A DNA stretch of 64,000 nucleotides from Phoronis australis (Eukaryota > Animalia > Phoronida): assembly GCA_002633005.1 (NCBI GenBank), contig NMRA01000253.1, positions 507,251 through 571,250 of the forward strand, given 5' to 3'. This document shows positions 2,505 to 56,094 of the stretch, piece after piece. The position numbers and the translations under genes are program-made. The notes under the pieces were generated by a model. That model had not been told where the DNA came from. It saw nothing but the letters and a program-made list of their open reading frames with translations, and made no database searches. Position 1 is the first letter of the stretch, and the number at the start of each line of letters is the position of its first letter.

Positions 2505-3298
2505 GTATTTGAAAGAATAGTCGTCAACAGTAGACTTCTGATACGAAAATTGCGTCAGAAGGTATTTAAAGCTCAACCAAATTGTCAAACATTAACATAA
2601 ACAGTGAAATGAGACCCAGAATAAAAACTACACACCTTCTTTAATCTCAATTTTTTCTTCATCTGTAATGAATCGAAGCACGTATTACTTAGGTGAACAT
2701 GTCGATTAAATAGTTACACATGCAGCGGACATGGTGTATTTCGATTTCGTGATAATTTGATCACTCGATACAGAAACTTCTCTTCATTAACTTTAAGGCA
2801 ACGGGATTTTGTGCAATTTAAGTTAGTAGCCTTATACTGATGTGAACTGTATTTTCTAAAGAAGGAGATAGTATTACATTTTGGCCTGGTTTTCGAAATA
2901 CTTTTGAGCGGAGGCGGTCACGCAAGAATCATACACTGTGAAGTAGCAGGGTACAAGTGACTAACCGATGTGCGGCATTGCGGGGCTCCAACGTGCATGG
3001 CAATGCAGTTTGGGCCTCATTAATAAACATCCCCTTGATGTGAAAAACAAAAGGAATGCATATAATCTAATTAGTCCAAAATCTAACCGCAATTACATTT
3101 CATTTTATTGTAAAACACGACGCCTGAGACGCGGTCAGTAAATCGACAGTCGTTTGTAACAGAGTTAATTTTTAACCTACAAACCAGAACTCAATACGTC
3201 GGCAGATGGAAAAGGGATACCAGCCAACCTTACCGAGGTAATTCCATTTTTTCGCGCACATACCCCGGACTATGCAACGTGTGTCATGCACTAAATAT

Positions 3299-9595: not shown

Positions 9596-9817
9596 CCTTG
9601 CAACCATAGAGAATTTGAATCTTTTTGATGTCTAGGGAGCTTAGCGCGATACGTTGTCCAATCGAGACACCGCTCTGTTTGGGAGTTATTGTAGGTTTTA
9701 GGGTGTCATTGCTGAATGCTGTTGCAGCGTAATGCATAATGCTGCCGTAGTCATAAGGCTGGCCGAGGTGGTCCACTTGAGTACCAAGGGTGTACTTCAT
9801 GAAATTGTTTTTTCTTC
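9596..9817 (-). CDS. Astacin exon: Met-turn and end of catalytic domain
   Basis: GRKNNFMKY...PYDYGSIMHY...IGQRIALSSLDIKKIQILYGCK; acceptor aatttcag, donor gtgag. Confidence 0.95.
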
Positions 9818-36800: not shown

Positions 36801-39800
36801 AGAAAGCGGCTCATTTCCTAAAACCTGGGCTGATTGTCGTATACGTAACAGTCTCACTAAGGAAGCTAGTCTGACCACGTGCCTCGTTTGCAATGCATGG
36901 CGATATTTCGCTAAGTCTAGCGAGTTCTTGCTTTTCTTAAAAGAAATTGGTTTGACGCAACGTACTCTTTGTCTGACGTCTGCAAAGCCCAATGCGATCA
37001 CGTGTCTTCGCGAGATATTCCATTGTATCACAAGCGAATTACGTTGATTCAATAGCTTTTGCTCTCGAGCATCTGCTAATAGAAAGGGCCTATGGGGTGC
37101 TAACCTGTTTAGCAGATTATTTCTTCCATCTGTCCACTGCTAATTAATTTTCAGCTGCCAAGTACATTTACTGTAAGATCGAAACCAGTGGAGGAAGGAG
37201 CGTTTTCAAGAATGTCCGACGAGTGGCGATTGTGTGTGCAGTCAACTGATCAACACTTACGGAATTTAGGCATGTATGGGTCATAAAATAAAGTAGGCAT
37301 CGCTTATTTGCTAATTAGAAATGCACTCTTCCAATTTCAGTTGAACAACCACCTGTAAATATGAAGCACTCATATTTTTCATACCTTAGGATTAAAGCGT
37401 GCCGGCATGTCGATGTCACCTTCAAACTTCCCCCCGAGCTCTTCCGGATTTACCTCGTTACTTAAACCTGAGGAGTATGAAAAGTTACGTCACACATTAC
37501 ACTCTTTCTAAGATTTAGCTGTCGACGAAAATGACTTGTGTGAAATGCATGTACAACGAATCACATCAAAATAAACCAGACAATTTAAAGCCTTAATCTT
37601 TCAACAGAGTTTTGTTATTCGAAATGTATTGGGCTACTATACAGATCGTCCTTATAATGCTTTGGCAACATAAGAAAAGAACAAAAGAACGTTTAAACAC
37701 CCAAACGCAGTCGTTTTGTCCAAAGCCCACGGTTCGGACCTGCTTAGGCTCACCCCTCGTCTCCCAAGGCTAGAAATTAAAAGTTGGGTTTGGTCAGTTT
37801 TAAAGCCAGTTATGTGAACTAAATAGGAGCGATTGTCGACAATAGTATTCAGTAGTTATTTGAACTTGTTTTGAGTACAAAGGTGAGTCCATCTTGTTTC
37901 AACTCTGTTTTCCCCAAATATGGACGTCCTGCCACTTTGTAAGAACTTCGTTGTACTGGTCGAATTGTTTTGCTGAAAGTTTAAGGTCTCTTAGACAAAG
38001 GGAATTCTGGTTGGTAAGGGTATATTCTAGCCTAAATTTCTGGAATCCTATGGTCAAGAGCATTTAGAATCTTGTGTTCATTTTGTGACCAGAGCAGTAA
38101 TCAATTTGTGATTTGGGGGAGAAAAAGGCCAAATTTCCATTTCTAGTCATGTTTCGGTATCTGGATTATTTTCTGTGGACACCAAGTCCATTGGATTTCT
38201 TTATCTGCGAGAGATTCAATCGATCGTGCTTTATGCAAGTTATGCGATTCTGACAACTGCCATGGAATTTACTGTCATAAAAACTTTTCGCAACTCCGCT
38301 GTTTTTCAGCTGAATTGTCGAGAGCTATACAATGTATCGTGAAAAAGCCGTTTGTCAGTTCTTGATTATTAAGGTTGAAGCCAGATATAAATGTTTTAAT
38401 TCATAAGTGCTTATCAGTTCGCATACCAGGCTGGTTTAAAAATATTTTTAATTCTAAAAACCAAAAGTGTTACCAAAATGCGAAAAATAACAGAGTGCAA
38501 TATAGTAACGTAAAAAAACAAATGAATCAGAGAGGTTAAATAAATGACTAGTTAAGCAATTAAGGAAATAATATCAATAATTTAAAAGATTTCTACCCTA
38601 TAAAGGCAAAGGTTTTAGAATAATGATCCCTCGCAATTGCGGTGGATAATTTAGTCAAGCAGACATCTAAAATTTTATGTCTTTATGTATTACAATTCAC
38701 TGCAAGTTTGGGGCCGTTTGGTGCAATTACATTATTTTGTAAAATTCAGAATGCAGTGACATTTACGAAAAATGCGATAAACTACTCCAACTATCTATCC
38801 GAAATGTTCACATAAAGGTTTTCTGCAAGATAAAAATGGGCATTAACGTACATGTATATCACGTACCTTTGAAATACACTGTGGATAGCGCACCACAGTG
38901 GAGTGTAGGACTTTCCATAAAAGTTTAGATATATTTTTTTTCTTCAGAATGTGGTCCTGGTACAAGCAGTGTGTGTTTCCGTAAACAAAAGACACTGGAA
39001 CACATTTTTACGATTGTTATATTACTAAAGACAGTGGACTCGGAAAAATAACAATATTCAACACCTGTTGTATAGTTGTCCTGGTCAACATTCAAGAAAG
39101 AAAAAAAAACGGGACAACGGGATTGAAAAGAGAGACTTCGCGATAAAAAGCGGGTGAAGTCTTCGTTGCAGTAGACAAAGACGGACTGATAGCGTTTTTT
39201 GCAGGACGGGAGAAGCAACACGCAAAGGTGCCTGACAGCGTTTTTTGTTGTCGCTGTTGTTATTGTACTGTTATGTTTTTATAGGTGAATGGGAAATTGC
39301 GGGTGTCGCAAAGTCCATGAAACGTTCCTTTTTTCTGTTTAGTCGAGCGGGAAAATATGTATATGTCACGTGGTACATGACTATATGATAATATATCAAT
39401 TTGGTCGTGTGTCTAAAGCCGGCATTTAGAGTGCTGTGGCGGGATGGCGCAAAAAGTCAAAACAGTGGGACAATCCAATGTATGCGGTCAGCAACACAAA
39501 GTTCTGGATTGGGTACCTGACGACTTCTTGCACTAAACACAATAGAGGGTATCTAATGCTATGATAGGTTGTTCCGAGTCTGCGTAGTATGCTGTTTTGA
39601 TTGGTTGTCCCGATTCCATTTACTTGTACATGTAGTATGCATCGATCAATAAATGCTCGTAACTGGAGATTAGCTAGTTAACCAATCGCCTGGTAGTGTT
39701 TGTGCGAGTTCTAATTTGGCAGCTGATCTACGGGTTTTTTTCTTTAATGTATCTGATATGAAATTGATGATTTTAAGCACTTTGACGTGTATTTAGCTTC

Positions 39801-42800
39801 AAAGTGTTGGAAATAACAGTTTCATCAAGCGCACTACGTGTGAAGGGGGGAATTCTACTAAAAGTTGCATTGGATGTGCATGTGAGTACTTACGATCTGT
39901 TTGCCCGGGTAACGCTGAGTTAGAAAGGTCGCCAGGCTGCAATTAAAATGAATAATTGTACGATTTAACTTCCGTACCATTCCGAAGACATTTCTGGGAA
40001 CAAAGAACCCTACTGAAAGTAATTTCTGTTGCGTATTAGAAGGTCGGACACTATTGCTGTTACAACCAGTTTTGCGATATTTGTTGGATAAGAAAAACTT
40101 TTTGACGTTATTAGGTTTGACATTATTTTAGTAAGTTTATTACAAATCTTCAATCCTCGTCGATGTCTGCCATCTAAAATCTAGCAGAGACTAACAATTA
40201 AATGCGCGTTAAGGGACCGCCACATCTTTCTTAAAGTAGTAGGAGCGCGGAACTGAACTCACCAGCTCAGTGCTGGGAAGTAAAATGGTAAAGACACTGG
40301 CCTTAATTTAGGTGGAAGTCTGGCTATTTGTTGTGAAATAACCAAAATATAACGGATTTCGGTGTCTTAAAACTTCAATCAAAGCTAATAACTCCAAGAA
40401 ATCCATGCCGTCCAACAATAGTCCCAAAATGGGTTTTCAGCCATTATCCAGACAATGTCCCTTTAAATTACCCTGTCGTTTATCAAGAGGAGTACGGAGC
40501 GTTTGACTACAAACGCTAGGGTTCCAGGTTCGGTTCCACGCTGGTTCTAATCTCATGACTTGATTTTCCTCGCCAATGACATCACTTTGATCACTAATTA
40601 CCAAAATTATTCCTCAGCCATACTGTATTCAGACACTCTCCGTGAATTATACTGGGGTTAAAGTACGAGTTCGTGTTGAACTTCACGATTGCTCAAGCAA
40701 TCTCAGGATTAAGCACGCGGTCGTGTTTGTGGGTAGTTTTATGCTACGTGTGGAAACTGCGAATAACATTTGCTCGACTTTGAGTCACATCAAATGGAAA
40801 AATGTTGATTCTCTGGTGGACTTTGTCCTCAGTCGCGGGTAGGAGCCTAGAAATATGCACAAATTTGACCGTCTTCGGAACATCATGTCTTGTATTCGCA
40901 CATTTCATTTTGAACATTTATATCGAAAGAAATTTGGTCAAGTTATTGATACCGCTGTTTTGCTATTAATGCATCTCTCTTTCGCTGCAGTTTGCTGAGA
41001 ATTTAATCATGGTCCAGTGACTCAATTAAAAAAGATTGATAAAAATCAAACTTCAGTGGACGGGCCTTCTGCATAAATAATTACTTTTACTGTGTTTCTT
41101 TTGATATTTGGTTAAATACACAGACGGGTCTTTGTGGTCCTACCATAGATATTAGTCTATGGTCCTACCATGGATATTAGTCTATGGTCCTACCATAGAT
41201 ATTAGTCTATGGTCCTACCATAGATATTAGTCTATGGTCCTACATAACCTTAAAATCTTAACTGTTTGCAAGCGGCCACTTGAAATTTATCAGGAATACT
41301 AGTCACCCTGCAGATGCAGACGCGCTTTGAATAAAATATTGGGACGTCGACACCTTTCACCTGATTTCTATTATCTGGGATTTTTGATAATCTGAATGTA
41401 CGCTGCCTCTTAGTTCATCATACTGCTTGCTAATGATGGCTTTCGGTGAAACTAATTTTTTGGAATTTTAGTTTTTGTTTCTAAGAAGCCGGGTGCACTT
41501 CCGAAAGTGATTGGTATCAGTTAATTGTCAAAATCCTGCTTAAGTGTCATTTTATTTTCACTGAGCACTAAATAAATTCATCAATGATAAGCGAGTCATA
41601 CGTTCAAGGTATACATTTACACAACCTAGTTAGATAACCGGGTAAATTTCGCAATCCAGAAAGATTTTCTATCTTCAGATTACGGAAAAGCTGCACGATC
41701 AGAATGTTTTTCATTTTGTTCGCGTTGTTTTCATGCGCGTTTGGCTTCTGTCATTCCGATGGTCGCACATACTGCTTACCGACAGCACCCTGTTGGCCTT
41801 CGCAAACGGCAATCAATCAACTGGCAGCAACATTAACGGGGGACTTGGTGCAGCCTGTCGACCCTAAAGATGATGGGAAATTCACGCCCGGGACCTCCTA
41901 CTACTGGGCAACCATGGGATTGTTGAAGAATCGCAGATTTTTGACAAAGCCTGGCATCATTGTTGTGGTCGCCAATGACAACGACGTCAAAGACTGCATT
42001 AGTTTTGCACGGCAGTACAACATCAAACTGGCCGTCATTTCGTCTGGACATGATTATATTGGAAGGTCTGTATAGCTTCCGTAAACTAACATTTCAAGTG
42101 TTCGCTTGGACCAATATTCACTTCATTTCGAAATATCAGTACGAAAGTCTGGATTCTGCAAAGGATTGTTTACGTTTGACATGGGGTGTTGAAGCAAGCA
42201 TCAAATAGCGCAAAAATAGCACAGCTAACACCTATAATAAGTTAGAATATGCTTTGCATCTGAATAAATAATTTACTGTAAATAAATGGAAATTCTTGTC
42301 AATAGAACACAATAGGTATACGGAATCAGTTGCGTCGTTGATGCCATAATAGTGTCTTTGTTTTAACAGGAACACAGCATACGGAAGCCTGCAAATTAAC
42401 CTCTACAATCTGCGCGGTGTCAGTGTCAACGTCAGGGAGACACAGTACTCGGACGGAGGAACAGCGGTTCTTGGCGTTGGAAACAACTTAGCTAAAGTTT
42501 ATGAAGAGGTAAAGCCGTCACCATGGAACAATTACACAGCATCGGCGTTGTTTAGCGCTGCTCTTTTATGTTATCAGTGATGTAATACTTTAATTTGATA
42601 TTTAATTCATTTTGTTCTGTGTGTTAGATATTCGTCATAGTGATATTTAAGTAATTTGGCTTAACCGTTATTTGAGCAGATATTTTACAGAATTGTCGAG
42701 CACTAATTTGCCACTAAATACGCCTTACTTTTTAGTTTGTGAAAGATAAGTAGGGTTATATCTCGGCGTGCTGTAAGCTTACGTAAATATGGGACTCCGT

Positions 42801-45800
42801 ACTGAACCGATGCATATTTGCTGTTACCTCTCATGTTTGATTGCAAGACTTCTCTTTCATTAAGGTTAACTCAAGATTATGAGATGTTTGTTTTAGTCTT
42901 TAGGGTTTACGGAATTCTGTCTGAAAACTGACTGTGATAATTACAAGAGATCCCCGTTACTGCACGAAGTTGCAAAAGAACCTTTACAGACCATGTCCGA
43001 ACTGCTAAAATGAACCTCACGTCGAGACTTTTGGTTTGTTCTTGGGTTTAGAAAGGAAAAATAAAAACCCATTCGCTCTCTAGACACGCGAAGGCATTTG
43101 TATCAGTTTTTAAAGTGGTTGTTTGTAGACTTGACAAATGGGGTCGCAAAAGAAAGAAACACGAGTCAGGTCAAGGTGTGCATCATTTTGAATAAAAAAG
43201 AATCAGAACGCACATGCGCTAAATAAGTCAAACGGAAGTTGTAAACTTCGAACTCGAAATCAAGTGAGCGAGGAAGTAGTGTGGCCTAGAGTATGAATGT
43301 CTGCCTTCAAAAAGGGATTGAAACCAAAGACTGGTAAAGCAGGAAATAACGGATAGGTTGAGGACAATGGTTTTCATTATAAATTATTACACCAGTGGCG
43401 ATAAAATCCTTCCATATAATTCTACGAGCTTATGTTTTCAGTTGTCGACTGTACACAATCGTGTAGTAGTGGGTGGAGCTTCCCCTAAAGTAAGTTTTGG
43501 TGGATACACTCTCGGTGGCGGCCACAGTCCGATTACACGTATGAAAGGACTAGCTGTGGACAATGTCATCCAGTTGAATCTAATCACAGCAAACGGTTCT
43601 ACCGCGTTAGTCGACAAAGGCGGGTACAGTTTGACCGATTCTGAAGGCGTAACAACGTATCATCAAGACCCGGACTTGTTCTGGGCACTGCGAGGTGGCG
43701 GTAAGTAAATATCTGACAGTGCAGGTCTTTTACAGGTAACTGCCAAACCAGGATTGATGTCTTGGTGTTACTTGTCGTGAACACCAAGAATGGGTGTTTC
43801 AAACGTTAGCTGCATCTTTGATGACGTCTTTCTGAATGCACCCAATATATTACTGTGTAAGACAACCTTGTGATCTGCATATTTTTAAGTGCAATCTAGA
43901 TGTATGTTTACACCGTGTTCTATTCAAGGCGGTGGTACATTTGGCATCGTCACATGGATCAAATACAAGCTTCATCTTCCTCCGGACCAATTTCAGTCGC
44001 TGAGTTGTGTTTGGGGGTTTGGGTTAAACCAACAGGATGCGACACCAGCTAAAGAGTTCTTAAAATTTTATGGAAAGTTTCTGCAAACATTTCCAAGAAG
44101 CTGGGGAGGTTACTTGTTGGTTGCTCCTCCCATACCACGTAAGTTACCATTTCTTTTTCACTATAACGCCACGGTATTTCCTTGTCCCTCCCTCCTTCCC
44201 TCCCCCTTCTCTCTCTCTCTCTCTCTCTCTCNCAGAGGTCAAGGTTGCCACAACTGCCAATATGGTATGTCTAGCTAGCAAGCGGAATAATTGAATCGAC
44301 CATTACACTCGGTTATTCTTCGTTTTAGCAAGTGCACTGGTCTTGTGACATCGTTTTTACAGTATACAACATCCCATATGGCTGGATAACACTTTCCCTA
44401 GTACACTGGGGAGACTACGCAGAGGCAATAGAATCATCCAAAGACCTCTTCAGCTGGCACCCCGAGTGGGCTCGTCCAGAGGGCTGCCAGATATCCAATC
44501 ACTCGTCTTTTTGGGACTACATCCACTTGAATAATGACACGGTATACGAAAGACAATACATCTTTAGTGCAAGTGTTCAGCCAGAGACATGGGCCACAAA
44601 TTTCACTGATGACTTGGTGGATTCAATGATGTCTCTGGCTTCAAAGCTGATTTTTGTGGCGGGGACTGCGACACATGTAGGCGGTAAGTGTCGACCTGTG
44701 CATTCCTCTGCTTTTTTATTGCTGGCAGACACACATTAAGTGACTGAAGGTTCTAACCTATTGATGACCGTCAGTCCGAACTGATTACCATACCATTTCT
44801 AACCTAACACTCTTTTTCCATAAAATGCGAGAAATATGATGCTTTCTAACATGTGGTATAAAAGTTGCCATGTCGCTTCATCATTGCAGGTCGAGCCAAG
44901 GAGTTCCCTGGTAATTCATCATCTGTTGTATCCGGTTTCCGGTCCGCAGACCTCGCACTGACAATGGGGGTGGGACTGTCCCAACCAATGCCAGCAACAG
45001 ATCCATACATCATGAACCAATCAAAAGAAGTTTCGTCAGTGGTAAGTCATAAAACAAGTTGATTTGAGATTCACAACTACGGTAAAATGTGGAAATATTC
45101 GAAAGCAACGTTTCTAAGTTTTGGTCACATATCATGCGATAGTCGATCCGTTCTTTAGATGGCGTTCCATCAAGATGCCTTACGTGATCGGCCAATTTTT
45201 TATTGGACCATTAGCCCCTATTGGTGATTTTGGACGCAATATTAGCAAATCGCAAGACGAAAAATATCTTTAAAAACGGAGTAAAGACTCAGGTAGTGAG
45301 GGGAACGTTAGAGAAAAACATGAACGGCGATGTCAGGAACATTATAAAAATAATTTATTCTGCAGCAACTGTTAAGGGATTGATTGTCACGGACGAAAAA
45401 TAGTTTACACTCAAAAAGGTGAGAAATTTTTAGTAATTCAAGTAATACGGAAAAAGTACATTCCAGTTTCTCGTCTTTATCACGAGTCGTCAATATCTAG
45501 TGAAGTGTATGGTGTTGTAAGTATTTCTTGAACTGTGAAATGGGCAGTGTTACAGAAACAGCAAGACAAAATGACGTGCATCTAAAATATCTCCATGAGC
45601 CCCTGTTGCCCAATTGCCGACAGGAGATGTATTTCTCAATAAACCCCAAATGTAGCATCTGCGCCCACCAGTAAAAAACAAACACACGTGCAAAGTGGAC
45701 ATTTTGCGACATAACACGGCGCCATTTTTCTATCCCTTTATTTTCCCTTGCTTCTCTTCAACAGCGGGAAATTTTATTATTTTCCGAAAAATCATTTTCG

Positions 45801-48800
45801 TAAGATACGTAATTTAATTGGAAACAGTAAAAATAAATTGAAAAGCCTTCGTGATTGGTGTATTAAGCACTTGACATAGATGCAAGGTAATATTCGAGAA
45901 TATTACATGTACGCTCAACAGGGCACCGAGGAACATTTCTATCGGTGAAGCTGCAGTCCCCAGTTTGCAGTTCACATTTTTTGTTACTCGAATAAATCCG
46001 CATTTTTCTGCAATATTGAACATTCATTCGTTATCATCCGGGCGTTTTGATGCAGGAAATAGAAGCTTTCAACACGACACCAGTCGTACAATTCACGAAG
46101 GTGTAAACATGATGTATAAATAAGTTAGCCGAAGAACCGTCACTTTTCTAAAAGTCAGTCCTTCGGACAGTGAGTCTTTAGGAGAGAGAAAAGCAACACG
46201 TCGGTAGACAATCAACAAGACGGTATAGGTGACAGCAGGAAGTATCGAGACTTGTCTTGGTCACCAGTTTGATTACGTTAACTAACAGCAAGGCTACAGC
46301 AGACACCGCCGGCGCATGTTTTTGAAATTGATATTGGGCAGTTGTTGCACTAAGTGCCTCTATACAAGGGTGCGCGTCATTCTGAACTTACGAGAGTACT
46401 CTGAAGAAGATTGAAAAAGACTGTCTTTTGTTCAACAGCAGTTGTATTAAATTATTAGTGAGCAATTGTTGGCACTCTGCCGCTTTGATACCCAAAATAT
46501 GCACTCACCTCTTCAGGGATTCATAACGAACATGTGACCACGTTTGGCTTAAAGCAACAGTTGCCTTTCTTAGAAAGAACACAGCTCAAAAATTGTACAC
46601 GGTGCTGCCCAGTAGTATGGAAAACTACACAAGTCGTGCTCATTTTGTTTTTGAAGATCTGTTAACAAAAAGCGTTTATTTAATCAAAACATTAAGTTAT
46701 GTACAAACCTCTACCAAAAGAAGTCCCACTTAGAAATGGAAATTTAAGAAAACATAGGAACCGTCGAAATATCTCCAAAAAGACGGAATAATGGGAAGGT
46801 GAGGTAGGAATAGTAGATATAGCACCGCATAAATGACCGTTTCACGGTTCGTGATTTGTGGAAGATCCGTTCTCCGTAGAGGCGAGAATCCCTTAAAAAC
46901 ACAATAACGCGTAAAACTTCCGCGGGATTTCGCCATGTATTACAACATTGTTAGCGAGATTCTTGCTTCAACCGAAGTTGCCGTTGTCTGGAAACGTAGA
47001 TGTGCTTTCTGTTTTCATTGGTTGGTTTCATTTGGATGTAAAGTGACGTATCCGTCTTTGTTTAAAAGCGTAGATAAGTTCCCAGGTTACCTAGTTTGTC
47101 CAAACTGTCGGTTTTACACCTTTATACGATTTTATCGTTTGTGTCGTACTCGTTTGTGTGAAATTTTGGTTAAATAAATTAAATAAAACGTGACGTGAAG
47201 TTTAACGTTGGTCGACGGCAAAAATACACTCTACACCACATGCTGCTCCAATAGTGTGTCAAATTGACAAACTCATAGCGGATGACGCCACGGAGTACTG
47301 AAATATAAGTCCAATTTCTGTGCGAAAACTAGCTAATGGTACTGGACGGGCATTGGGGCAACTTATTATATTGCACGATGTAGATAATGAAGCCACGCTT
47401 TATTTTCATCTATAATTTTATAGATGTACAAATACATCAACAGCGGCTACTACAACGAACCAGACAGTGAGAAGCCGGACTGGAAGACGTTTTACTGGGG
47501 AGACAAGTATCCCGCGCTCCTTCGTGTGAAACAGAAATGGGATCCTGATAACACGTTCACCTGTCTACATTGCGTGGGCTCTGACCTTGTCTGAAACTGA
47601 CTGTTATGAATTGTGGCTGGAAACAGAACCATTAGATCATATATTGGTTACTGTCGCTTTCTATCCCAATCAGGAAAAACGGATGCAATTTCAAACATAA
47701 CAGTTGCAGTTTTTTTTTGGTCAAACGGCGCCCATGTCCTAGCTGAGAATAACTCACTTCAGCAAATTTATTACATGTGAAGAATGATGCCTTACATAAA
47801 CAAGAGCAACGCGGGCCTTTGAAATGCTCCCACGAATGCACCGCAAACGGTGTGCTTCTTGGGATGTTTATTTGCATCATAAAAATGGCAACTAGATGGT
47901 CAAAATACTTTGAATCCATGCCAAAACGCGAAAATGTCACCGTATTATTAACAAAAAGCTATTTACCACATTTCATGAAAATCTGTCAAGAAAATACAGA
48001 GAAACAGAGGAAAATAGAAAAAAAATAAATTGCCACTAAAAGGCACAGCGTTCATCGGATGCGTCTGAAAGTTGTAGGCTTCCGTTGTCAACTTCACATA
48101 AATATAGTTGCTTAACTTAATAAAAATCCTGTAGAGGGCTTATAGTCTCGACGCATTTCTGGGAAATGTGCATGTTAGAGGCATTTTTATTAAAAGTGAA
48201 GAACCTATCTTTTTAGCATAATTATGGTGTGCTGATTTCAATTATGCTTGTTCCCAAGCTGGGTTTTGAGTTTTTGACCATCTAATTTCCATAAACAAAA
48301 TGGCCGCCAAACCAACAAGATGAGAAACATTCGTGGGACCAGGAGTACAATATGTGACGAATAATTAGGAAATTTGTGCTACAAAAACATAGTATATGTG
48401 TGTTTAGAGCACTTAATTTTGAGAACATATTAATGGACGTCATTAAATTCCCCAAGTATGCTAATTAGCTTCTGCCATTACCGAAAAATTCAAATATCGG
48501 TGTAACTTTATCAATTTGCAGGCAAACATGACAAATAAAGTGTCTATACCTATGTTTTGAAGGTCTAGAAAAATCATTATGTGAAGCTTTTATTTCATCT
48601 TCACTAAGTTACAATTTATGCTCATTAATAAAGCCTGAAAATTAAATTAGAAATCATAATTATCAATGCTTTTTTGCGAACATCTCACTATTTAGATTAG
48701 ACATAAAAGTATTGTAAGCATAACAACATGACTTTTAGCTACTGTTGTAAAGAAATGCATGGCCATATCGTCCCATTTTGGACAGGAACATACTGTTTTC

Positions 48801-51800
48801 AAAGTCGACCAAGCACTCTGCTGCAGATTAATGGAGCTTACGTGGTCGGTCCCAGAATACCAAAATATAGTAATACAGTACATCGTTTAGTGGTTCTTCA
48901 AGTATCAATGAACTTCATCAAGGCCATAGAAGATGACATGAGTGATTCCGGAATAGCTGAGGTGTGTATAGAGAGTGCAGTACTTGGTCACGACCTATGG
49001 AACTGGTCCTCAGTGGAAAGTCGTACATCAAAGTTACAGCATGAGGGCACACAAAGTGTCTTTGCAAGCTCTGTGGCAATCCCTGGTGCCAAGCCTTCTC
49101 TCGTTCTTTGCAGAAGCGACTGTCATGCTTGTATTTCCAGTATGTCTGCAGATAATGATCCATAGAAAATTCCGGAATTGATAACATTTCTCAGTCAGGA
49201 TAAGTTCTGGGCATTTTGTCAACAGTAGGTCTGATGATGTGAATTTCAGCTTCTGGTGGAGTTACATGGACATGGTTCCAATATCGTTGAAGTACACATG
49301 CTTTCAACGGGATGGCATTTGGGAACTGCATCTCTATTCATTTACTCTCATGCTGCCCTACCGAATTATGCCCGAGTGGGGTGCGGTCTTTTTAGTCGAG
49401 ATGCATCAGCTTCCACAGTCTGTTTGGTCAGAGGTTCAAGCAGGAAATTTTGTAGTCAAGCGATCTTCTCATATGCTCTGTCAGGTAGATTCTGACCAAT
49501 GGGTAAATGGGGCAGGCAAAACGGAGGTGGCATCATCGGTAATACCAAAACCACGTCAGCTCTATGGAGGTGGACACTCTCATTACATCTGACATGTCAT
49601 ATAGCTGAACAAACTTACCGCTGTGGGAGTACATAGTTTCTCAATGAAGCCACGAAAGCCAGGAAACTGTGTGAAAATAATGTCGAGAGTTCCCTTCTTT
49701 GCACTTTCCATGGATTGAAGGTCTTCTCGTCCGCAAGGCCTTAGCTGCTACAAACCCTTGCAACAAAAGACCTAGCAACAGCACCAATCCAAGAGTCACT
49801 TTTGCACACCAAGGAACTTGGACACGAACAAATTAAGAAATTTGTTCAAGACAGATTATCATTGAGCAATGCGAAAATTGAGACATGTCAATTCTTGCAC
49901 CTATGCGCAAAAATAATGCCCCCAACATTTGCCAACTTATATGATGTGGTGAAACAAACCAAAGATAAAGATAAAGATAAGAAAATGGATCTTAAGGCAG
50001 ACAGGGATGTACTTCGCTGTCTAGCTACGGCTCATGAGGCAGGTCGGCCAGTTGATTTGCTGTCTGTGCTCAAAAGCGAGCTTCTTCCAGTCCATGTTGT
50101 CTTGCAGAAACGATAGCGAAGCATTGCTGGTAGCTCTTGGGAAGCCTGATGGTGATGTGACCTTCGAAAATTTGGCTGATTCATTCATGAAAACAGTGCT
50201 TAACACAGGATTTCGATATCATAAAATTGATATTGTATTTGACAGATACAGACAAGAAACAATGAAGGACACAACAAGAAAACAGCGCAGTAAAGGAACA
50301 CGGCAAATCAGGTGATTTCTGGAAGGCCGCGATGTACCTCTTCCTCAAAACTGGTCAAATTTTCGGACACTGGCTGAGAATAAAGCAAACCTAGCACATT
50401 TCTTTTCAGAGGAACTGTGTTTGTAGACACCTGAAGACAAAAAGGTTATGGTTGCAGGAGGGTTTAAAGATGAGCTGAAAGTCATTTAAATCATCTAAGG
50501 ATATGACTGATTTGAGGACTCTGAAATTCACACATGAAGAAGCATATGCAAGATTGACACTGCATGCTGTCCACAGTCAGTCGTGTTTTCCAGACACACC
50601 CGATGTTCTACTGCTTCTGGTATCGCACTTTCAACAAATGCAATATGAGCATATCTGACTTATGTCATATATACCTATTGAACCACCTTTCAACAAATTA
50701 CTACGAGACTCACCAACATCCTTGTTTGCTTTTCATGCCGCGACCGGGCTTGGAACCAACTCTTACTTTGCCAATCACATGAAAAAATCATCATGGAAGG
50801 TGATCCTAGAGCATCATAGATTGCTTAAGAACCTCAGTCTGCATTGGTGAACTCACTGAGAAAATTACGACGGCTTCAGAAGTATTTGTCTGTAGAATAT
50901 ACACGACCAGAACAGACCTGTAGATGTAGCACGCCATTTACTATTCTCCAAGCCCGTGAACCCAGAAGTCCTTCCCCCAACGCATAATGCGCCCCGTTTC
51001 CATCTGATGAGAGTGCACTATCAGGTCAAGGTATCGCAAAATGATCATTGTCCCATACCTGAGCTCCCAGCACCCTCTGATATGGGAGGGACACACACAA
51101 ACTTATGCTTGCAGCCCATGCTGATAACACAGAGTAAAATCCCAGACAGCTGCCTAGAGATGGTATTGTGTGCATGCCAGAAACAACGCAACAGTAGACA
51201 ATGCAGATGCAAGAAATTTGGATTTCGATGCATATCATTATGCAGCACATTCATGATCAGATTCCTTGTATGCAAACTGTTTGATTTGCCTGGCTTCAAG
51301 CATGTTAAAAAGTACCAAAAAGTGAACGCTAAAATTGTGTTCAACAGGCCTGAAAACAATTCATGCAACAGGGAATCTAATGTATTCAATAACAATAACT
51401 AAATCGTTTTTTATGAATATAAGATAACGGGATAGTGTGAACATTTGTCCTTATATTCCGTCAAAATAGTGTCACCTTGCTTAACGAGCATCGCAGATTA
51501 ACGACTATTTTTTCCACATTCTGTAAGTATATACATCTACAACCCAAAAGATATGAAGTAAATTACTCCAAAAATGCTTTTAGCATGTTTGTTGACCATG
51601 AACATATATTATTAACACCTCATTTTTCAAGTTAGCCTGCAGGAGCACAAACTTAAGACGCAAATTAAATTGTATGGTAATGGCGGCACCTAATCTTCAT
51701 AATAAGTTTTTAGAGTTGCATTTTTTAGTTTTCATAAGTGATCTATTGCTCAAGAAGTATTTATAAGAAGTGTACAGGTGAGAAATTTCGCCATTTTAAC

Positions 51801-54773
51801 TGGTATATTGTGATTTCTATTACAAAAATACATCTGAACTTGACAATTTGGCCGCCATTTTGTTTATGCTAATTAGATGGTCAAAAATGCAAAATTAGGT
51901 TTGGGAACAGGGTTTGTTGAATTTGCCATGCCTTGATTGTGTGAAAAAGTCTTGTTCCCAACTATTACTAAAAAATGCTTCTAGAACCTTATACAGGGCT
52001 CTTTTCAGGAAATGCGTCTAGACTATCAAGAGATACAGCTGTGGGTGTAAAAAAAAAATCAAAACTGACACTAAGAGGCGCCACAGTAATCGAAGCTGTT
52101 CGAAAATCATCATCAGTTGTCATCTTCACACTAAGAACATATAAGCTAATGTTCACAATCATCCTAAGATGGCGCAAAATATGTCGAATCCGTCCGAACG
52201 AAAAAATGTCATCGTTTCTTTAAAACTAGGGATCCTTCCGAAAGTTGTCGTTTTCCGTTGACAACTTCACGCGCTAAATTTAATAAAGATCCTGCAGCTA
52301 AAAAACAAAACTGCCACTAGGAGGCGCCACAGTAGTCAAAGTCGGAAAATCATCTGCAATCCTCCTCTTCATGGTAAGAACATACGCGCCAATTTTCACA
52401 ATTATCCTCAGAGTGGTTTGGGTGATAGCGGGGGACACCAAAAATACACTCGAGAATAGTAAAAAATGATCACTAGATGGCGCAACATGCCTCAAACCCA
52501 TCCGAAAACGGAAGGATAGCGTCCTCTCATTAATAGAGGCCTATATGCCAAATTTCATGAAAACTGGTTGAGGACCTTTGAAGATACAGAGGCAAACGTG
52601 AAAAACTAAAATTGCCACTGAAGGGCACAGCAGTAGTCGGGTCGGTCCGAAACTCGTCGGCCTCTGTCGTCAACCCGCAACACACCTGCCAAATTTCAGT
52701 AAGATCCTGCAAGGGGTTTAAGACAGCCGTGGACGCCCGGCGGAAGATCAGACAAAGATGACGGCAGTATGCACCTACATATAAATATGTGGGCGCATAA
52801 AAAGGACACAAACACTCTTCTGGTGATTTCAATGCATAGGCGTCTCACTTGAGTGACAAAACGGTATTCAGAGCAATAACAACACACTGTTTCACAGAAT
52901 GGATATCATTTTTATTGGTGGGTGTGTAGTGAGGAAAAGAGTTGCCATTTGGTAATTGCGTTTTAAAAATCACAGTGGAGTGGATAAAAAAGAAGAACGG
53001 TACATAAGCAAATTTAGCTCTATGAGGATCTTTGATGGAGTGGGTGTTCGAAACTTAATATAAATGACCAGTGCCTAAGTTGAACGTGAATCGCATTATT
53101 TTTCGGTTTTCAAAACAGACAAATCCAGTAGACGGTGAGTGTAAGGACATTTTGCATGAGCGGTAAGAGGATAAAACGACTTCTTTAACGGATGGTTCCG
53201 ATAACGAGAATAACATGAAAATAGACCTGATAGAATGCCTTCAGAAGAGTACATTTAGAGGATGATCCGCTATCGAATAACGCAGCGAAACAGTCAACCA
53301 ATACCAATCCACGTCGTCTTGGTTCTGCCAAAGACAGTATTGATGTTAAATCCAACAATGAAGCCTCTCAAATACTATCATTACAGCATGCAAATGTTGA
53401 TTGATCGAACCCGTGGCATGAGGCAACTCCGGTACTCACATTTGGGTTTTGTTACACCAACGCCTGAGCGAGCTTGAACCAGACTGTGACTAACCCGTTC
53501 TAATGTATTCACAACTTAGTGCGCCTGGCTTAGCCACTCTGATGAAGAAAATTTATTCGCTAGTTTCTTTCATAACCCATCGATTTTAACAACTCGAAGA
53601 TGGCTAGTCTTTGCTTTTCAGGTTTGGAAACGGTAACTTTGATCGTTTGTCTTACTTGTTGTTTCTTTTTGTACTTTGGAACTCGAACGCTAAACAGAAA
53701 TGTTGGTTTACGAACGGAATTACATGTAACGTGTTCAATACGCTTTTGGCCAAGCCCATGAATAACGACTAGCTCACGTCAATCTGTGACGGGGCCATCA
53801 AGCTTTTTATGAGCCGAGAAATTCGCTGGATACTCTGAGGTGAACATTGCACGCCTTTTCGTCATCTTGCGTGGTAATTCTCGCTGCGTAGGAGTCATCT
53901 AACAACGTAAAAATTGGGAATGCTCGAAAGATAAGCATCTACTCAGAAACTTCGGCTATGAAACGAAATAAAAGGAAGTGAGATGGGGAAACAAAGATTG
54001 GTTGAAATATCTTCGTGCTTTTGAAGCGATAAGCTGCGATTCAGTGTGCAAAGGTAGAGGTGCTCCCATAATTCATTTGATCCCTACGTGAGGTCGTTTG
54101 GTAGTCGCAGTATTTTACCTGCCACGGGCAATAGACAATTGTTGAATTTTTTAACTTAATCCAGAGTATGCAAGTTACTGGAGTATTTTGCATCGCATTT
54201 ATTCTGGTTTGCACGGCTGCATTTTCCTGTTCTCACGATGTCTGTCTCGTTAGCTTTCACTGCACTGCAGTTAATGCGCAAACTGTTACGTTTTTGGGCA
54301 GCAACGTCAGCCTGTTCAGCACATCTAAACGGTTAGAAACTTAAGTTGACATTAAACGACATGCAGTATTTATTGAAAAAAAAGAAAAAAGTTTCATTAT
54401 TTTCTAATTGGTACGTCCAAATTGTCTGGCACTTATCTGTCAACTGCTTGCATAAGTTGTAAATTTTAACTAATTACTTGATGAGGGCTCCCTCTCAAAG
54501 CCCGTTCTTCCACCGCTTTCTCAACAGCGGCAACCCTTTCTTGATGTTTAGTCCAAATGATAGCTATATCGAAAGATATCTTTGTCAAAATCAATCGAAA
54601 CCAACATATCATATTCCCATAGCTGTTGCACAATATCTCATATGTAACTAAGTAAATTGGTGATTTCTTCCTAGATTGCAGCTTCCACGTTTAGAGATTC
54701 TTACCTGCATAGGTGCAGCTGTTGCCATTCCAATTAGCGCTACAGACAGAAGGAAGGGACTCTTTATCTTCAT
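9596..54773 (-). CDS. Astacin-family (M12A) zinc metalloprotease, multi-exon gene model; 3' end uncertain
   Basis: Phase-compatible GT-AG exons: 54705-54773, 39894-39936, 37385-37467, 36478-36553, 31885-32020, 14276-14451, 9596-9817. They encode a signal peptide, the FEGDI pro-domain motif, an R|NA maturation site, HELLHTLGFLHE, the SIMHY Met-turn and all four catalytic-domain cysteines. Confidence 0.85.
11075..12839 (+). mobile_element. Internally deleted Academ-like element
   Basis: Short terminal inverted repeat AGGTCCG/CGGACCT; internal 'RNPDTDVVLLGLA' near 11760 and a degenerate Cys-containing tail near 12080-12180. Confidence 0.4.
12748..13640. repeat. ~385-bp duplication across an n gap (13254); copy 1 is followed by a MITE start
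   Basis: 12748-13132 matches 13255-13640. Only copy 1 continues with CAGTGGCGGATCTAGG (13134-13253). Confidence 0.9.
14276..14451 (-). CDS. Astacin exon: zinc-binding motif
   Basis: (G)CYSSVGRKGKNQTLSLGSGCERKGTIMHELLHTLGFLHEQSRADRDDYVTVHYENIQK; acceptor tttcag, donor gtaatt. Confidence 0.97.
15339..16350 (-). mobile_element. ISL2EU/Harbinger-superfamily transposon remnant (DDE_Tnp_4-type transposase fragment)
   Basis: ORF 15781-16116 'GSDRYIVQKSGFL...DKIMADRGFTI...LNIPPF...RIHLERAIRR'. Short TIR AGACAGA/TCTGTCT flanked by AT on both sides. Confidence 0.75.
17480..17696 (-). pseudogene. Degenerate THAP domain, transposon-derived
   Basis: 'MGKRC*YGVCNTDSRY' then, after a frameshift, 'PKPKNDVEKRKLWIKLYG', matching the THAP C-x-C...P...W layout. 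Confidence 0.55.
17880..21090 (+). mobile_element. Decayed Academ-like element (N-terminal transposase region); boundaries approximate
   Basis: 'IVHTALKLRNDL...IIP*SVYVFLSILLG', 'RKLTPKHIGLGLAL', 'IPQWSAFNA' with stops; right subterminal region has repeated GTTRCCATGGYAAC motifs. Confidence 0.6.
19230..19625. repeat. 198-bp tandem duplication
   Basis: 19230-19427 and 19428-19625 are nearly identical (one substitution seen: gttttgg vs gtttcgg). Confidence 0.9.
21410..28166. mobile_element. 6.75-kb foldback element with long terminal inverted repeats and palindromic subrepeat arrays
   Basis: 21410-~21680 is the reverse complement of ~27835-28166 ((c)AGTCTCAAAGTG...CACTTTGAGACTA). Blocks at 21700-22820 are mirrored at 26070-27830. 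Many TGCGGAACGGTTCCGCA and GCGGAATATTCCGC palindromes. Confidence 0.85.
27906..28005. repeat. 21-bp tandem repeat (TGCGTAATATTCCGCAAAATC), about 4.5 copies, inside the right TIR
   Basis: Units read directly; fewer units are present in the left TIR near 21575-21610. Confidence 0.85.
28800..31610 (-). mobile_element. L1/Tx1-like LINE ORF2 (APE endonuclease and linker), degenerate, interrupted by a MITE
   Basis: 'IFCLQGT', 'SDSRGVAILFN', 'LVNIYG', 'SDFN', 'TFSWSRTNLVKKARLDYFLV' (after removing the MITE), 'SDHSNV', 'GVMVRSRANWVENGENPTNFFCALEKRN'. Confidence 0.85.
29652..31033. mobile_element. PIF/Harbinger-type non-autonomous element (1382 bp)
   Basis: Perfect ~30-bp TIR GGCCCGGTCTCCAATCTCCGTACTCAGACTC, 3-bp TSD CTG on both sides, and subterminal GTACTC/GAGTAC repeats. 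Confidence 0.85.
31885..32020 (-). CDS. Astacin exon: N-terminal helix and first cysteine
   Basis: (A)QSTKNSIMAAMQEIMDVTKVGNSKCIQFTKRYKEKAYVNIQPFN(G); acceptor ctttcag, donor gtaag; phases 1 and 2 fit the neighbours. Not in the ORF track in this frame. Confidence 0.92.
32751..35737 (-). mobile_element. Ty3/Gypsy LTR retrotransposon, internally deleted
   Basis: ~145-bp LTRs at 32751-32895 and 35592-35737, TSD GTATG, PBS TGGTGGCAACGGT (tRNA-Leu-like), PPT AAAGAGGGGGAA, protease 'LKIDSGCSGNTLP', integrase ORF 33186-33716 ('TDNRSQY', 'TSSPHY'). Most of RT/RNase H is missing. Confidence 0.9.
36478..36553 (-). CDS. Astacin exon: mature N-terminus
   Basis: HRNALANRGKLWPKGIVYYKINDTF; acceptor tttcttgcag, donor gtagg. 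Confidence 0.93.
37385..37467 (-). CDS. Astacin exon: pro-domain
   Basis: LSNEVNPEELGGKFEGDIDMPARFNPK with the FEGDI aspartate-switch motif; acceptor ctcctcag, donor gtatg. Confidence 0.92.
39894..39936 (-). CDS. Probable small astacin pro-domain exon
   Basis: ttaattgcag|43 nt|gtaagt encoding PGDLSNSALPGQTD; phase 0 in and phase 1 out, bridging the signal exon and the FEGDI exon. Confidence 0.65.
41135..41243. repeat. 25-bp tandem repeat (TGGTCCTACCATAGATATTAGTCTA), 4.3 copies, with an internal palindrome
   Basis: Units read directly. Confidence 0.95.
41704..47594 (+). CDS. Secreted BBE-like FAD-linked oxidoreductase (FAD_binding_4 plus BBE domain), 7 coding exons, 537 aa
   Basis: Exons 41704-42065, 42370-42508, 43442-43700, 43929-44138, 44363-44683, 44890-45041, 47424-47594; all GT-AG, 1614 nt in total, no internal stop. 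Signal peptide MFFILFALFSCAFG; 'SSGHDYIGRNT'; 'GGYTLGGGHSP'; 'DLFWALRGGGGGTFGIVT'; C-terminal 'YYNE...W..FYWGDKYPALLRVKQKWDPDNTFTCLHCVGS'. Confidence 0.95.
44207..44231. repeat. (CT)n microsatellite next to an n gap
   Basis: Read directly; lies in BBE intron 4. Confidence 0.9.
47799..52803. mobile_element. Helentron-associated (HINE/DINE-like) non-autonomous element, split by the Academ insertion
   Basis: Starts AACAAGAGCAACGC, a start shared with 61384. Diverged internal tandem subunits (GCCACTA..GGC.CAG...CCGAAA) occur at 48030-48140 and 52060-52720. Ends in the hairpin ATGCACCTACATAT-AA-ATATGTGGGCGCAT followed by an A-run. Confidence 0.5.
48143..52025 (+). mobile_element. AcademX-like DNA transposon with both termini and a decayed ORF
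   Basis: Imperfect ~170-bp TIR (TAGTCTCGACGCATTTC / GAAATGCGTCTAGACTA; inner TTTGACCATCTAATT..AAACAAAATGGCCGCCAAA mirrored at 51847-51890); flanks tta/tca. Protein pieces 'RAHKVSLQALW', 'RDGIWELHL', 'GNFVVKRS', 'DIVFDRY', 'HEEA', 'FHAATG', 'LPPT..FHLMRVHYQ', 'CACQK..CRCKK..C...C' (XPG-like plus Cys-rich tail). Confidence 0.8.
54705..54773 (-). CDS. Signal-peptide exon, probably the first coding exon of the astacin
   Basis: tttctcag|ACAAGACA ATG ... MKIKSPFLLSVALIGMATAAPMQ|gtaag. A candidate 5'UTR exon donor (GAG|gtgagt) lies at 55451. Confidence 0.75.
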
Positions 54774-56094
54774 TGTCTTGTCTGAGAAATAAAATGGAAA
54801 TTTAAAATAAATGTGTCGTCAGAGAATTGCGATAATGTTCCGTCATCCAAGGTTTGGTCCAAAGCTATCACAATTACACCGAAGTATTGAATTAGCGCCT
54901 TTTATATACATTTATGGAACACACTAAGTGCCGCCTTTAAAGACCGCTGATGCACGAGTTCGTTAGCTTGTGACGATGATGCTGGTGACGTTTAGTCAAT
55001 ACACGTGCAAGAAGTAATCGGAATTGAGGTTTCAACAATCAGTTGAATCATGGAACCAATCACAACGGCACTCGAAAACAACGTGATTTGATTTTTGCCC
55101 GTAATGTGACCTATAGTGTGCGTATTTAACAGGTTCCATTTTATTGACCAATTGATTGGGACGGCAACATGATCGCAACATTGGCTACGAACTGTCGTGT
55201 AAAAAGTCAAATCAACCACCGTGATATCGAATATATATTACCAACGGCCCAAATACGTCTTTTTGATTAAAGGTCATCGGTCCTGAACTTACGCAAGCAT
55301 TACTAGTTAGTTGTCGAAGACAAAGCTGAGTTGTCATGTGGTATTCCATAAATAATCAGATTCGCCCAGTCGCTGCATTACGTTTTATTCCAGAGGCGTT
55401 GAAATCAGTCTATTGCAGTGCGGCCATTTGATACTGTTTTCCGTACTCACCTCCTGCACTACTTCAACTGCCTTCTGACATGGAAAGTTTAAAGGTAGGT
55501 CAATGTCGATTCGACATTGTTAGCCAGTTCGATCACCAAACTTTCCGAAAATAGTTTAAAATAATACAATTGCAACAGTATAAATAACACTAAACATGCA
55601 ATGAGGTCCCAAAAGTAAGTAACATCTGGTACAAAACTGTTGATTGTATGAACACCTCTGTCTCAGTTTTCAATTGCTAAATATTATATCGTCTCCAACT
55701 AAGGCCCCGATTCCTATTTTCAGGAAATGATACAAGTTGCACTCAACAGTTTGTGCTGGTGTGGGCTTGAAAAACAGGACCTGGCAGCTCCAGCAATCTG
55801 TTCTACATGGACGGTATATTATGCTCAAGAAATCGCTTTTGATCCATTAGTGTAGATTTAAAGATGACTTGTATTTCCCGAAAGTGGTTTAGCCGTTGAT
55901 ACAGTGTTCAAGTAGCACACGTTTTAAATTCAATATGAACCTTTCTCCAAGCATGTTTTCGTTTTACCAAAGCGTTTAGAATAATTTATACATGTACTTA
56001 ACTTACCACCTAAATATGGCCTAACATGCGACAAAGTAAGCTCGGTTCAAAGCAGTTCGGGGCTCCAGACCATTTAAGTACGTTTTGATCCATN

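What the first reader, a model, noticed from the sequence alone, without database searches (positions are those of the whole stretch)
39937..54704. Intact secreted flavin oxidase gene nested antisense in the first coding intron of a secreted astacin protease
Seen: no convincing signal-peptide exon was found between 39937 and the BBE start at 41704. A clear one (MKIKSPFLLSVALIGMATAAPMQ, canonical splice sites, phase 0) lies at 54705-54773 on the astacin strand and joins in frame to the phase-0 exon at 39936. The 14.8-kb intron so defined contains the whole 7-exon BBE-like gene on the opposite strand. The only gap in this interval (44232) is bridged by BBE exon order, so a misjoin is unlikely. 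Established: many BBE-like enzymes are H2O2-producing oxidases, and astacins process extracellular proteins. Inference: a nested protease/oxidase pair, both secreted, that could be co-regulated or mutually exclusive and act in extracellular matrix, mucus, digestion or defence. The functional link is speculative.
Basis: partly seen in the sequence, partly recalled or inferred. Interest (0 to 1): 0.85.

Follow-up and report, generated by a model that had tools for sequence, protein, structure and literature searches.

The report
Oxidase nested in two-version protease gene
An oxidase gene likely sits backwards inside the first intron of a secreted-protease gene, a common arrangement, but RNA reads join the protease's first exon to a related second exon that is absent from this window, so the protease gene likely exists in two versions.

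Summary
Both genes are real. The 7-exon BBE-like/VAO-type flavin oxidase (537 aa, + strand, 41704-47594) is intact, and all six introns are spliced in RNA. The exon at 54705-54773 is transcribed on the - strand and its donor is used. On paper it completes a 10-exon, 332-aa ShK-astacin. Nesting stays likely, but the expressed protease body is another allele or paralogue, or is hidden by the draft assembly; this is unresolved. Antisense nesting is common (71% of fly nested genes, PMC3814207). No functional link is shown; both genes are on in two runs and off in a third. The oxidase belongs to a mollusc/brachiopod family of likely monocovalent-FAD oxidases; no paper on it turned up in three searches.

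The parts
54705..54773 (-). Astacin coding exon 1: signal peptide exon, phase-0 donor; 5' UTR runs up to about 54870
   Evidence: Transcribed 20-27x in X2/X3, donor used; best of 379 candidates
54900..54908 (-). TATA-like box (TATATAAAA) about 30 nt above where RNA depth falls
   Evidence: Sequence; depth drop at 54850-54880; function inferred
39937..54704 (-). Proposed astacin intron 1 (14,768 bp); this exact splice not seen in RNA
   Evidence: In frame on paper; RNA leaves 54705 for another exon
39894..39936 (-). Astacin exon 2 of the window (propeptide start); 18 of 30 nt identical to the exon 2 read in RNA
   Evidence: zero sense depth in X3, about 177 nt in its bin in X2
37385..37467 (-). 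Astacin exon 3 (prodomain, FEGDI)
   Evidence: little RNA depth at 90% likeness
36478..36553 (-). Astacin exon 4 (mature N-terminus)
31885..32020 (-). Astacin exon 5
14276..14451 (-). Astacin exon 6 (HELLHTLGFLHE zinc motif, SRADRD)
   Evidence: Pfam Astacin E 7e-25
9596..9817 (-). Astacin exon 7 (SIMHY Met-turn)
   Evidence: Pfam Astacin E 4e-19
8186..8233 (-). Astacin exon 8 (linker)
   Evidence: inferred from splice sites and frame
4085..4195 (-). Astacin exon 9 (ShK-like domain); a second copy at 3557-3667 across gap 3834
   Evidence: Pfam ShK E 1.9e-5, above cut-off
2628..2662 (-). Astacin exon 10 (tail and stop)
   Evidence: inferred from splice site and frame
41704..42065 (+). BBE-like oxidase exon 1 (signal peptide, FAD His116); RNA starts about 41643-41684
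42370..42508 (+). Oxidase exon 2
   Evidence: Joints
43442..43700 (+). Oxidase exon 3 (G179, S181, V184, H195)
43929..44138 (+). Oxidase exon 4 (start of substrate domain; second haplotype in RNA)
44232..44232 (.). Assembly gap (single N, size unknown) at a CT microsatellite in oxidase intron 4
44363..44683 (+). Oxidase exon 5
44890..45041 (+). Oxidase exon 6
47424..47594 (+). Oxidase exon 7 (BBE domain, E493, stop); 3' UTR runs on to about 48550
   Evidence: Pfam BBE E 5.6e-12, above cut-off; RNA depth and AATAAA at 48534
48176..51983 (.). Decayed transposon-like element with 71-73% identical inverted ends and broken ORF remnants, inside the same intron
   Evidence: no Pfam hit on four remnants

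Best explanation
An intact, spliced flavin-oxidase gene lies antisense just downstream of a transcribed astacin signal-peptide exon and is likely an ordinary, functionally unlinked tenant of that protease's first intron, while the RNA splices that exon to a related second exon missing from this window, likely because the sampled animals carry a different version (haplotype) of the protease body at this locus. Shown: both gene models, splicing and strand of the oxidase, use of the 54705 donor, the foreign but homologous exon 2. Inferred: exon 1, promoter and oxidase are shared at allelic identity (about 97-99%), and a switch point between 39937 and about 41640 separates them from two old, diverged protease bodies, as unequal crossing-over or conversion between astacin paralogues would leave. 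Inferred from family motifs: the protease is a secreted zinc endopeptidase zymogen with a C-terminal ShK domain; the oxidase is secreted, binds FAD through His116 only (Ser181 in place of Cys), has oxidase-type gatekeepers (Gly179, Val184) and likely oxidises a bulky secondary alcohol with release of H2O2, like its closest solved relative with a known substrate, MtVAO713. The two genes have separate promoters about 13 kb apart, facing each other.
For: Oxidase introns all spliced; exon 1 transcribed, donor used; RNA exon 2 is the best match to exon 39936 among 3457 minus-strand acceptor positions, 18 of 30 against 15 for the next, P 3.5e-5 for that pre-named site, so an exon of the 39936 type does follow exon 1; no better match at an acceptor in 39937-54704 (best 15 of 30 among 805), so the expressed intron 1 should span at least oxidase exons 5-7 in this haplotype; the window's body is intact over 9 exons and has no other signal exon; exon 1 plus UTR in the reads differs from the window at one fixed site and one minor site; the locus is polymorphic, with a second oxidase haplotype in about a third of reads; large haplotype differences are known in a mussel (PMC7653742 abstract); nesting in long introns and on the opposite strand is the common case (PMC3814207 passages). 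Oxidase residues; rules from PMC4898691 and PMC6017366 passages.
Against: The named junction was not seen, so nesting rests on genomic inference. A 40% difference in exon 2 only 1.8 kb from an oxidase exon at about 98% identity is extreme for alleles and fits paralogues equally well. Only 30 nt of the other exon are known. The assembly is a draft with 6 gaps in 64 kb, three flanked by 95-98% duplicated stretches, so collapse or hidden sequence is possible. The one-third oxidase variant class could be a second gene copy. Both genes are on in X2 and X3 and off in X4, which fits shared regulation better than independence, though it is three runs of one study. No DNA reads of any individual were available; no enzyme activity was tested.
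Confidence: 0.42

Rival explanations
1. Two astacin paralogues exist at different places, and their 5' parts (promoter, exon 1 and perhaps the nested oxidase) were recently duplicated or homogenised by gene conversion. The reads come from the other paralogue; the window's gene, with the 54705-39936 junction, is real but silent or minor in these samples.
For: 60% identity in exon 2 is paralogue-like; window exons 2-3 get little or no RNA; oxidase variants at about one third in both X2 and X3 could be a second copy; X2 agreement 0.94 and about 177 nt of sense depth in the exon 2 and exon 3 bins leave room for a minor window-type transcript.
Against: Needs near-identity over exon 1, UTR and upstream DNA; no second exon 1 in the window; no second copy could be searched for (no genome held).
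Confidence: 0.25
2. Assembly artefact: the true exon 2 and its gene body are hidden in gap 44232 or in a collapsed tandem duplicate, so exon 1 and exon 39936 belong to two neighbouring astacin genes and the 14.8-kb intron does not exist as drawn (genes interleaved, or each copy with its own oxidase).
For: RNA exon 2 absent from the window; a gap of unknown size lies in the interval; haplotig-type duplications at 3 of 6 gaps.
Against: The window's astacin body spans 37 kb, a lot to hide in a microsatellite gap; gap 44232 has no flanking duplication; most X2/X3 oxidase reads match the window on both sides of the gap and join exon 4 to exon 5.
Confidence: 0.17
3. One promoter and one signal-peptide exon feed two tandem protease bodies on the same chromosome by alternative splicing; the samples use the body outside the window, other tissues would use 39936.
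For: Same donor and phase for two homologous exon 2 types; intact window body without its own first exon; possible minor window-type reads in X2 only; first-exon sharing is known in humans (PMC2568002 abstract).
Against: Would need skipping of a 52-kb gene with its end signals, or a hidden body in the gap; the window-type junction was not shown in any run.
Confidence: 0.1
4. First reader's functional reading (independent of which body is used): nesting is kept because the secreted protease and the H2O2-making oxidase act together and share regulation.
For: Both predicted secreted; both on in X2/X3, off in X4.
Against: Three runs, one study, tissues unknown; fly nested pairs are less correlated than neighbours and diverge in expression; no paper holds both 'FAD-linked oxidoreductase' and 'astacin'; conservation untested.
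Confidence: 0.12

Closest known systems
Antisense intron-nested protein-coding genes (Drosophila, mammals)
   Same: A multi-exon gene inside a long intron on the opposite strand, with its own promoter; nearly 10% of fly genes are in nested structures and 71% of nested genes are antisense (PMC3814207 passages).
   Different: Here the host's first exon is read into a second exon that is not the one beside the nested gene in this assembly.
ShK(T)-astacins, peptidase family M12A
   Same: Signal peptide, prodomain, HEXXHXXGXXH plus EXXRXDRD, SIMHY, four catalytic-domain cysteines, C-terminal ShK (motifs from PMC9848320 passages).
   Different: No close relative in the databases: best 51% over 237 aa (P0001, Mytilus); two versions of the body behind one first exon.
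Fungal VAO-type oxidases MtVAO615 (6f72) and MtVAO713 (6f74)
   Same: Best solved matches by sequence and by fold of a Lingula homologue (6f74 first, TM 0.74); His157/Tyr159/His237/Glu519 of MtVAO615 align with His116/Tyr118/His195/Glu493; Ser at the Cys site as in MtVAO713, which oxidises ricinoleic acid (PMC6017366 passages).
   Different: Only 20-23% identity for the homologue modelled; substrate unknown; the profile included 8 named fungal rows, which lifts those scores.
Mollusc and brachiopod 'ZEB1-like / VAO615-like / ARB_02478-like' FAD-linked oxidoreductases
   Same: Full-length 31-37% identity; window protein groups with two Lingula proteins and one unnamed one (SH-aLRT 98) inside a clade of 44 rows (99) in a quick tree; none of 43 rows has the FAD cysteine.
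   Different: Long branch (1.27); differs at 5 of 70 highly conserved columns; appears to have two introns that relatives lack (indirect).
Berberine bridge enzyme proper (reticuline oxidase)
   Same: FAD_binding_4 plus BBE domains, His-linked FAD, Gly/Val gatekeepers.
   Different: No 6-S-cysteinyl link; much more distant than the fungal VAO615/713 group.

Membership tests
Intron-nested gene pair | Inner gene lies wholly between two exons of the outer gene model | tested here: met
   Oxidase 41643-48550 lies between exons 54705 and 39936 of an in-frame 332-aa model
Intron-nested gene pair | Outer transcript shown to splice across the inner gene at the named junction (54705 to 39936) | tested here: not met
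   Consensus of 17 (X2) and 20 (X3) reads is another exon; a small minority in X2 not excluded
Intron-nested gene pair | Expressed outer intron spans the inner gene whatever exon 2 is used | tested here: inconclusive
   No RNA-type exon 2 in 39937-54704, but its place is unknown; gap at 44232; no genome held
Intron-nested gene pair | Inner gene independently transcribed on the opposite strand | tested here: met
   Stranded depth and six spliced introns
Functionally coupled nested pair | Nesting conserved in relatives | not testable with these tools
   No animal genome search offered; the look-up of encoding contigs closed
Functionally coupled nested pair | Co-expression or mutual exclusion beyond neighbours | tested here: inconclusive
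   Both on in 2 of 3 raw-read runs, both off in 1 of 3; one study
Astacin (M12A) | HEXXHXXGXXH followed by EXXRXDRD | tested here: met
   Residue 164 onward; motif from PMC9848320
Astacin (M12A) | SIMHY Met-turn with zinc-binding Tyr | tested here: met
   Residue 220
Astacin (M12A) | Signal peptide and prodomain before the catalytic domain | tested here: met
   Exon 1 hydropathy 2.99; FEGDI at 52, within the 20-89 range seen in 8 of 9 homologues checked; the role of this Asp as latency switch is recalled
Astacin (M12A) | Pfam PF01400 above cut-off; two catalytic-domain disulfides | tested here: met
   88 and 69 bits against 22.5; Cys116, 137, 156, 267, pairing inferred
Astacin (M12A) | Zinc-dependent proteolysis | not testable with these tools
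   Needs assay
BBE-like / VAO-type flavoprotein | PF08031 BBE domain and PF01565 FAD-binding domain | tested here: met
   BBE 45.9 bits against 20.6; FAD_binding_4 hit on two single exons (E 4e-4, 9e-5), each below cut-off because the domain is split over exons; full-length homologues carry both
BBE-like / VAO-type flavoprotein | Histidine for 8-alpha FAD link | tested here: met
   His116 in GHDY; 42 of 43 animal-clade rows
Bicovalent BBE-like enzymes | Cysteine for 6-S-cysteinyl FAD link | tested here: not met
   Ser181; 0 of 43 animal-clade rows have Cys
BBE-like oxidase (not dehydrogenase) | Gly and Val gatekeepers of the oxygen pocket | tested here: met
   Gly179, Val184; rule from PMC4898691 passages
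BBE-like oxidase (not dehydrogenase) | H2O2 production and substrate | not testable with these tools
   Needs assay

The most novel reading that the evidence does not exclude
One promoter and signal-peptide exon serve two deeply diverged protease bodies (by alternative splicing on one chromosome, or as long-kept alternative haplotypes), with the nested oxidase, itself carrying two substrate-domain variants, riding in the shared first intron as a co-expressed secretory module.
Probability: 0.12. Interest if true: 0.7.

Novelty: new member of a known kind. Interest (0 to 1): 0.36.

Why it matters
As a nested pair it is ordinary. Two things give it some value. First, the RNA shows that the reference misses a second version of a secreted protease behind an almost identical first exon; if these are alleles or alternative bodies, it is a sharp case of exon-level shuffling between paralogues in a secreted enzyme, with a testable switch point of under 2 kb. 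Second, the oxidase represents a widespread mollusc/brachiopod family of likely monocovalent H2O2-producing oxidases, close to fungal VAO615/713 enzymes, for which my three paper searches listed no study; its substrate is open and easy to assay.

Tried and rejected
No genome of the window's organism is held, so no paralogue or synteny search. The look-up of sequencing runs listed no holder on record as RNA; X2-X4 came by species label and were laid. Both read-laying runs are used, so exons 5-10 of the astacin were not tested. The RNA exon-2 motif and an exon-1 stretch found nothing in JGI metagenome contigs: no evidence either way. No same-species astacin among 14 hits or the 150 best of 3730 representatives, so the other body could not be read. 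A search with oxidase exon 1 found nothing; exon 3 worked. The Atlas did not hold oxidase exon 1; a Lingula homologue gave mollusc and fungal clusters. Earlier findings: none. Rejected: an astacin start between 39937 and 41700 (no candidate exon; sense depth 0-0.42); pseudogene status of either gene (no stops); recent horizontal transfer of the oxidase (six introns, nested in an animal clade; deeper origin not tested); mutual exclusion at sample level. The careful tree did not finish; the quick tree was used. A paper search for the transposon family I recalled (Academ) listed nothing, so the element is left unnamed. No complex was predicted: no binding is claimed. Supplements were not read; none is likely to bear on the claims.

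Full report
WHAT WAS CHECKED. The window is animal DNA (38-43% GC in most bins) from a draft assembly with six single-N gaps; three gaps are flanked by 95-98% identical duplicated stretches, as heterozygous assemblies leave, but gap 44232 is not. No genome is held. Nearest named homologues are molluscan and brachiopod, so the animal is likely a lophotrochozoan.

THE OXIDASE IS REAL. Seven + strand exons (41704-42065, 42370-42508, 43442-43700, 43929-44138, 44363-44683, 44890-45041, 47424-47594), all GT-AG, give 537 aa without a stop. All six introns are spliced in X1 contigs and in X2/X3 reads (62/37, 45/36, 54/49, 48/35, 21/16, 60/41), with RNA on the + strand; X4 shows none of these joints. 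The intron-3 joint is printed two bases off because of a synonymous change at 43699. RNA begins at about 41643-41684 and ends between 48473 and 48634, near an AATAAA at 48534.

THE PROTEASE MODEL IS COMPLETE ON PAPER. Ten - strand exons from 54773 to 2628 give 332 aa with signal peptide, FEGDI prodomain motif, HELLHTLGFLHEQSRADRD, SIMHY, four catalytic-domain cysteines and a ShK-like domain (family motifs from passages of PMC9848320). The exon at 54705-54773 ranks first of 379 open ATG..GT phase-0 candidates in 39937-64000 (16 pass a relaxed filter; none lies in 39937-41703), has no second copy in the window, and is transcribed on the - strand at about 20-27x in X2 and X3 with depth ending at 54705. 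X4 gave 0 reads there; X4 does hold the animal's repeats and a few oxidase reads. X1 gave no contig, which proves nothing.

THE NAMED JUNCTION WAS NOT SEEN. Reads leaving 54705 form one loose end in each run: 17 reads in X2 (agreement 0.94) and 20 in X3 (agreement 1.0), same consensus; one further loose-end row was hidden. It translates to TDGRSSAALG, where exon 39936 gives PGDLSNSALP. It has no match in the window at up to three mismatches. Yet exon 39936 is its best match among 3457 positions followed by a minus-strand AG: 18 of 30 identical, in register, next best 15; chance for this pre-named site is 3.5e-5 (0.12 expected over all sites). Depth agrees: had the junction reads run on into the window's exons 2, 3 and 4, X3 would show about 1.3, 2.5 and 2.3 in those bins; it shows 0, 0.05 and 0.16. 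X2 shows 0.27, 0.27 and 1.84 (with 0.25, 0.05 and 0.82 antisense), and its 0.94 agreement would fit one to three of 17 reads being different, so a minor window-type transcript in X2 is possible but not shown; 51 joints were hidden.

WHAT THIS MEANS FOR NESTING. No exon of the RNA type lies in 39937-54704 (best 15 of 30 among 805 acceptor positions), and 44233-54704 has no gap, so if the reads come from this locus their first intron covers at least oxidase exons 5-7 in this haplotype. If they come from a copy elsewhere, the window's intact body still needs a first exon, and 54705 is the only good one. Nesting is therefore likely (about 0.75 over all readings, my estimate) but rests on inference.

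READINGS. (1) Alternative haplotypes of the protease body behind a shared exon 1 and oxidase, 0.42: exon 1 and its UTR in the reads differ from the window at one fixed and one minor site, most oxidase reads match closely, and large haplotype differences are known in a mussel (PMC7653742, abstract only). (2) A paralogue elsewhere with a duplicated or converted 5' end, 0.25: 60% identity looks paralogous, and about one third of oxidase reads carry a second variant set in both runs. (3) Hidden or collapsed sequence at gap 44232, 0.17. (4) One first exon spliced to two bodies on one chromosome, 0.10 (precedent for shared 5' exons: PMC2568002, abstract only). Attempts to read the other body failed: no same-species astacin among 14 hits or the best 150 of 3730 representatives, nothing in metagenome contigs.

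HOW THE OXIDASE LIKELY WORKS. A search with exon 3 gave 840 hits, 120 listed, led by mollusc and Lingula proteins, 31-37% identical over the full length for the best ones. I aligned 69 of the 120 (43 near-full-length rows from P0015-P0088 and 26 outgroup rows; fragments dropped; the labels of unnamed rows are mine). In a quick tree the window protein joins two Lingula proteins and one unnamed protein (SH-aLRT 98) in a 44-row clade (99) apart from fungal and tardigrade rows. His116 is kept (42 of 43), the FAD cysteine is Ser181 (0 of 43 have Cys), and the gatekeepers are Gly179 and Val184 (42 and 43 of 43), the oxidase pattern in passages of PMC4898691. 36 of 41 rows starting with Met have a hydrophobic N-terminus. 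The closest solved proteins are MtVAO615 and MtVAO713; an AlphaFold model of the Lingula homologue P0035, not of the window protein (pLDDT 90.6), matches MtVAO713 first (TM 0.74). MtVAO713 also has Ser at the Cys site, is a true oxidase, oxidises ricinoleic acid and was inactive on 23 carbohydrates (passages of PMC6017366). Inference: a secreted monocovalent-FAD oxidase of bulky secondary alcohols that releases H2O2; substrate untested.

FUNCTIONAL LINK. Both genes are on in X2 and X3 and off in X4: three runs of one study, tissues not known to me. This speaks against sample-level exclusion and is too thin for co-regulation. In Drosophila nearly 10% of genes are in nested structures, 71% of nested genes are antisense, host introns are long, and pairs are less correlated than neighbours (passages of PMC3814207); expression of nested pairs diverges fast (PMC5174743, abstract). 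The astacin's introns are long anyway (17.4 kb for intron 5) and hold transposon remains. No paper holds both 'FAD-linked oxidoreductase' and 'astacin'; the 20 papers listed in each had no occurrence of 'berberine bridge enzyme' (20 of 78 and 20 of 2,467 seen, listings only).

VERDICT. Observation partly confirmed; interpretation partly supported. A new member of a known kind (antisense nested gene; ShK-astacin; VAO-type oxidase), with an unresolved second version of the protease body as the part worth following. Interest 0.36.

Noticed in passing
window 44004-44107 (oxidase exon 4): A second variant set in the X1 contig and about a third of X2/X3 reads; 7 of 9 listed differences here change the amino acid (residues 279-308, start of the substrate domain; two of the seven only in X1) against 4 of 16 elsewhere (only 40 of 751 rows were shown). 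Allele or second copy, possibly with another substrate pocket.
   Followed up: partly
window 48176-51983: Decayed element with inverted ends (71-73% over about 140 nt) and frame-shifted ORF remnants ending in a cysteine-rich stretch; the oxidase 3' UTR ends inside its left end, near AATAAA 48534. Family not identified.
   Followed up: partly
window 47880-48130 and 52030-52720: Copies of a dispersed repeat flank the element and are very abundant in RNA from other loci (depth 190-240 in all three raw-read runs).
   Followed up: no
window 3557-3667 and 4085-4195: The ShK exon appears twice across gap 3834 within a 534-nt, 98% identical duplication: likely a haplotype artefact, a real tandem exon not excluded.
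   Followed up: partly
oxidase introns at aa 167 and 430; proteins P0016, P0020, P0021, P0023 and others: 15 of 15 short ENA gene calls tested align only within about aa 170-435 of the window protein, suggesting that relatives have one large exon between the window's introns 2 and 5 and lack introns 3 and 4.
   Followed up: partly
window 41135-41243: Tandem repeat of 25 nt, 4.4 copies, about 400 nt above the oxidase start.
   Followed up: no
window 33189-33773 (-), 15784-16149 (-), 5700-6149 (-): Broken mobile-element remains in astacin introns: integrase core (rve), DDE_Tnp_4 and reverse transcriptase fragments.
   Followed up: no
window 21400-28100: Several copies of an AT-rich repeated unit fill much of the 17.4-kb astacin intron 5 (seen).
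   Followed up: no
window 54820-55120: Low antisense (+ strand) reads over the astacin promoter in X3, and a 6-nt deletion at 54907 beside the TATA-like box in all 7 reads covering it in X2/X3.
   Followed up: no
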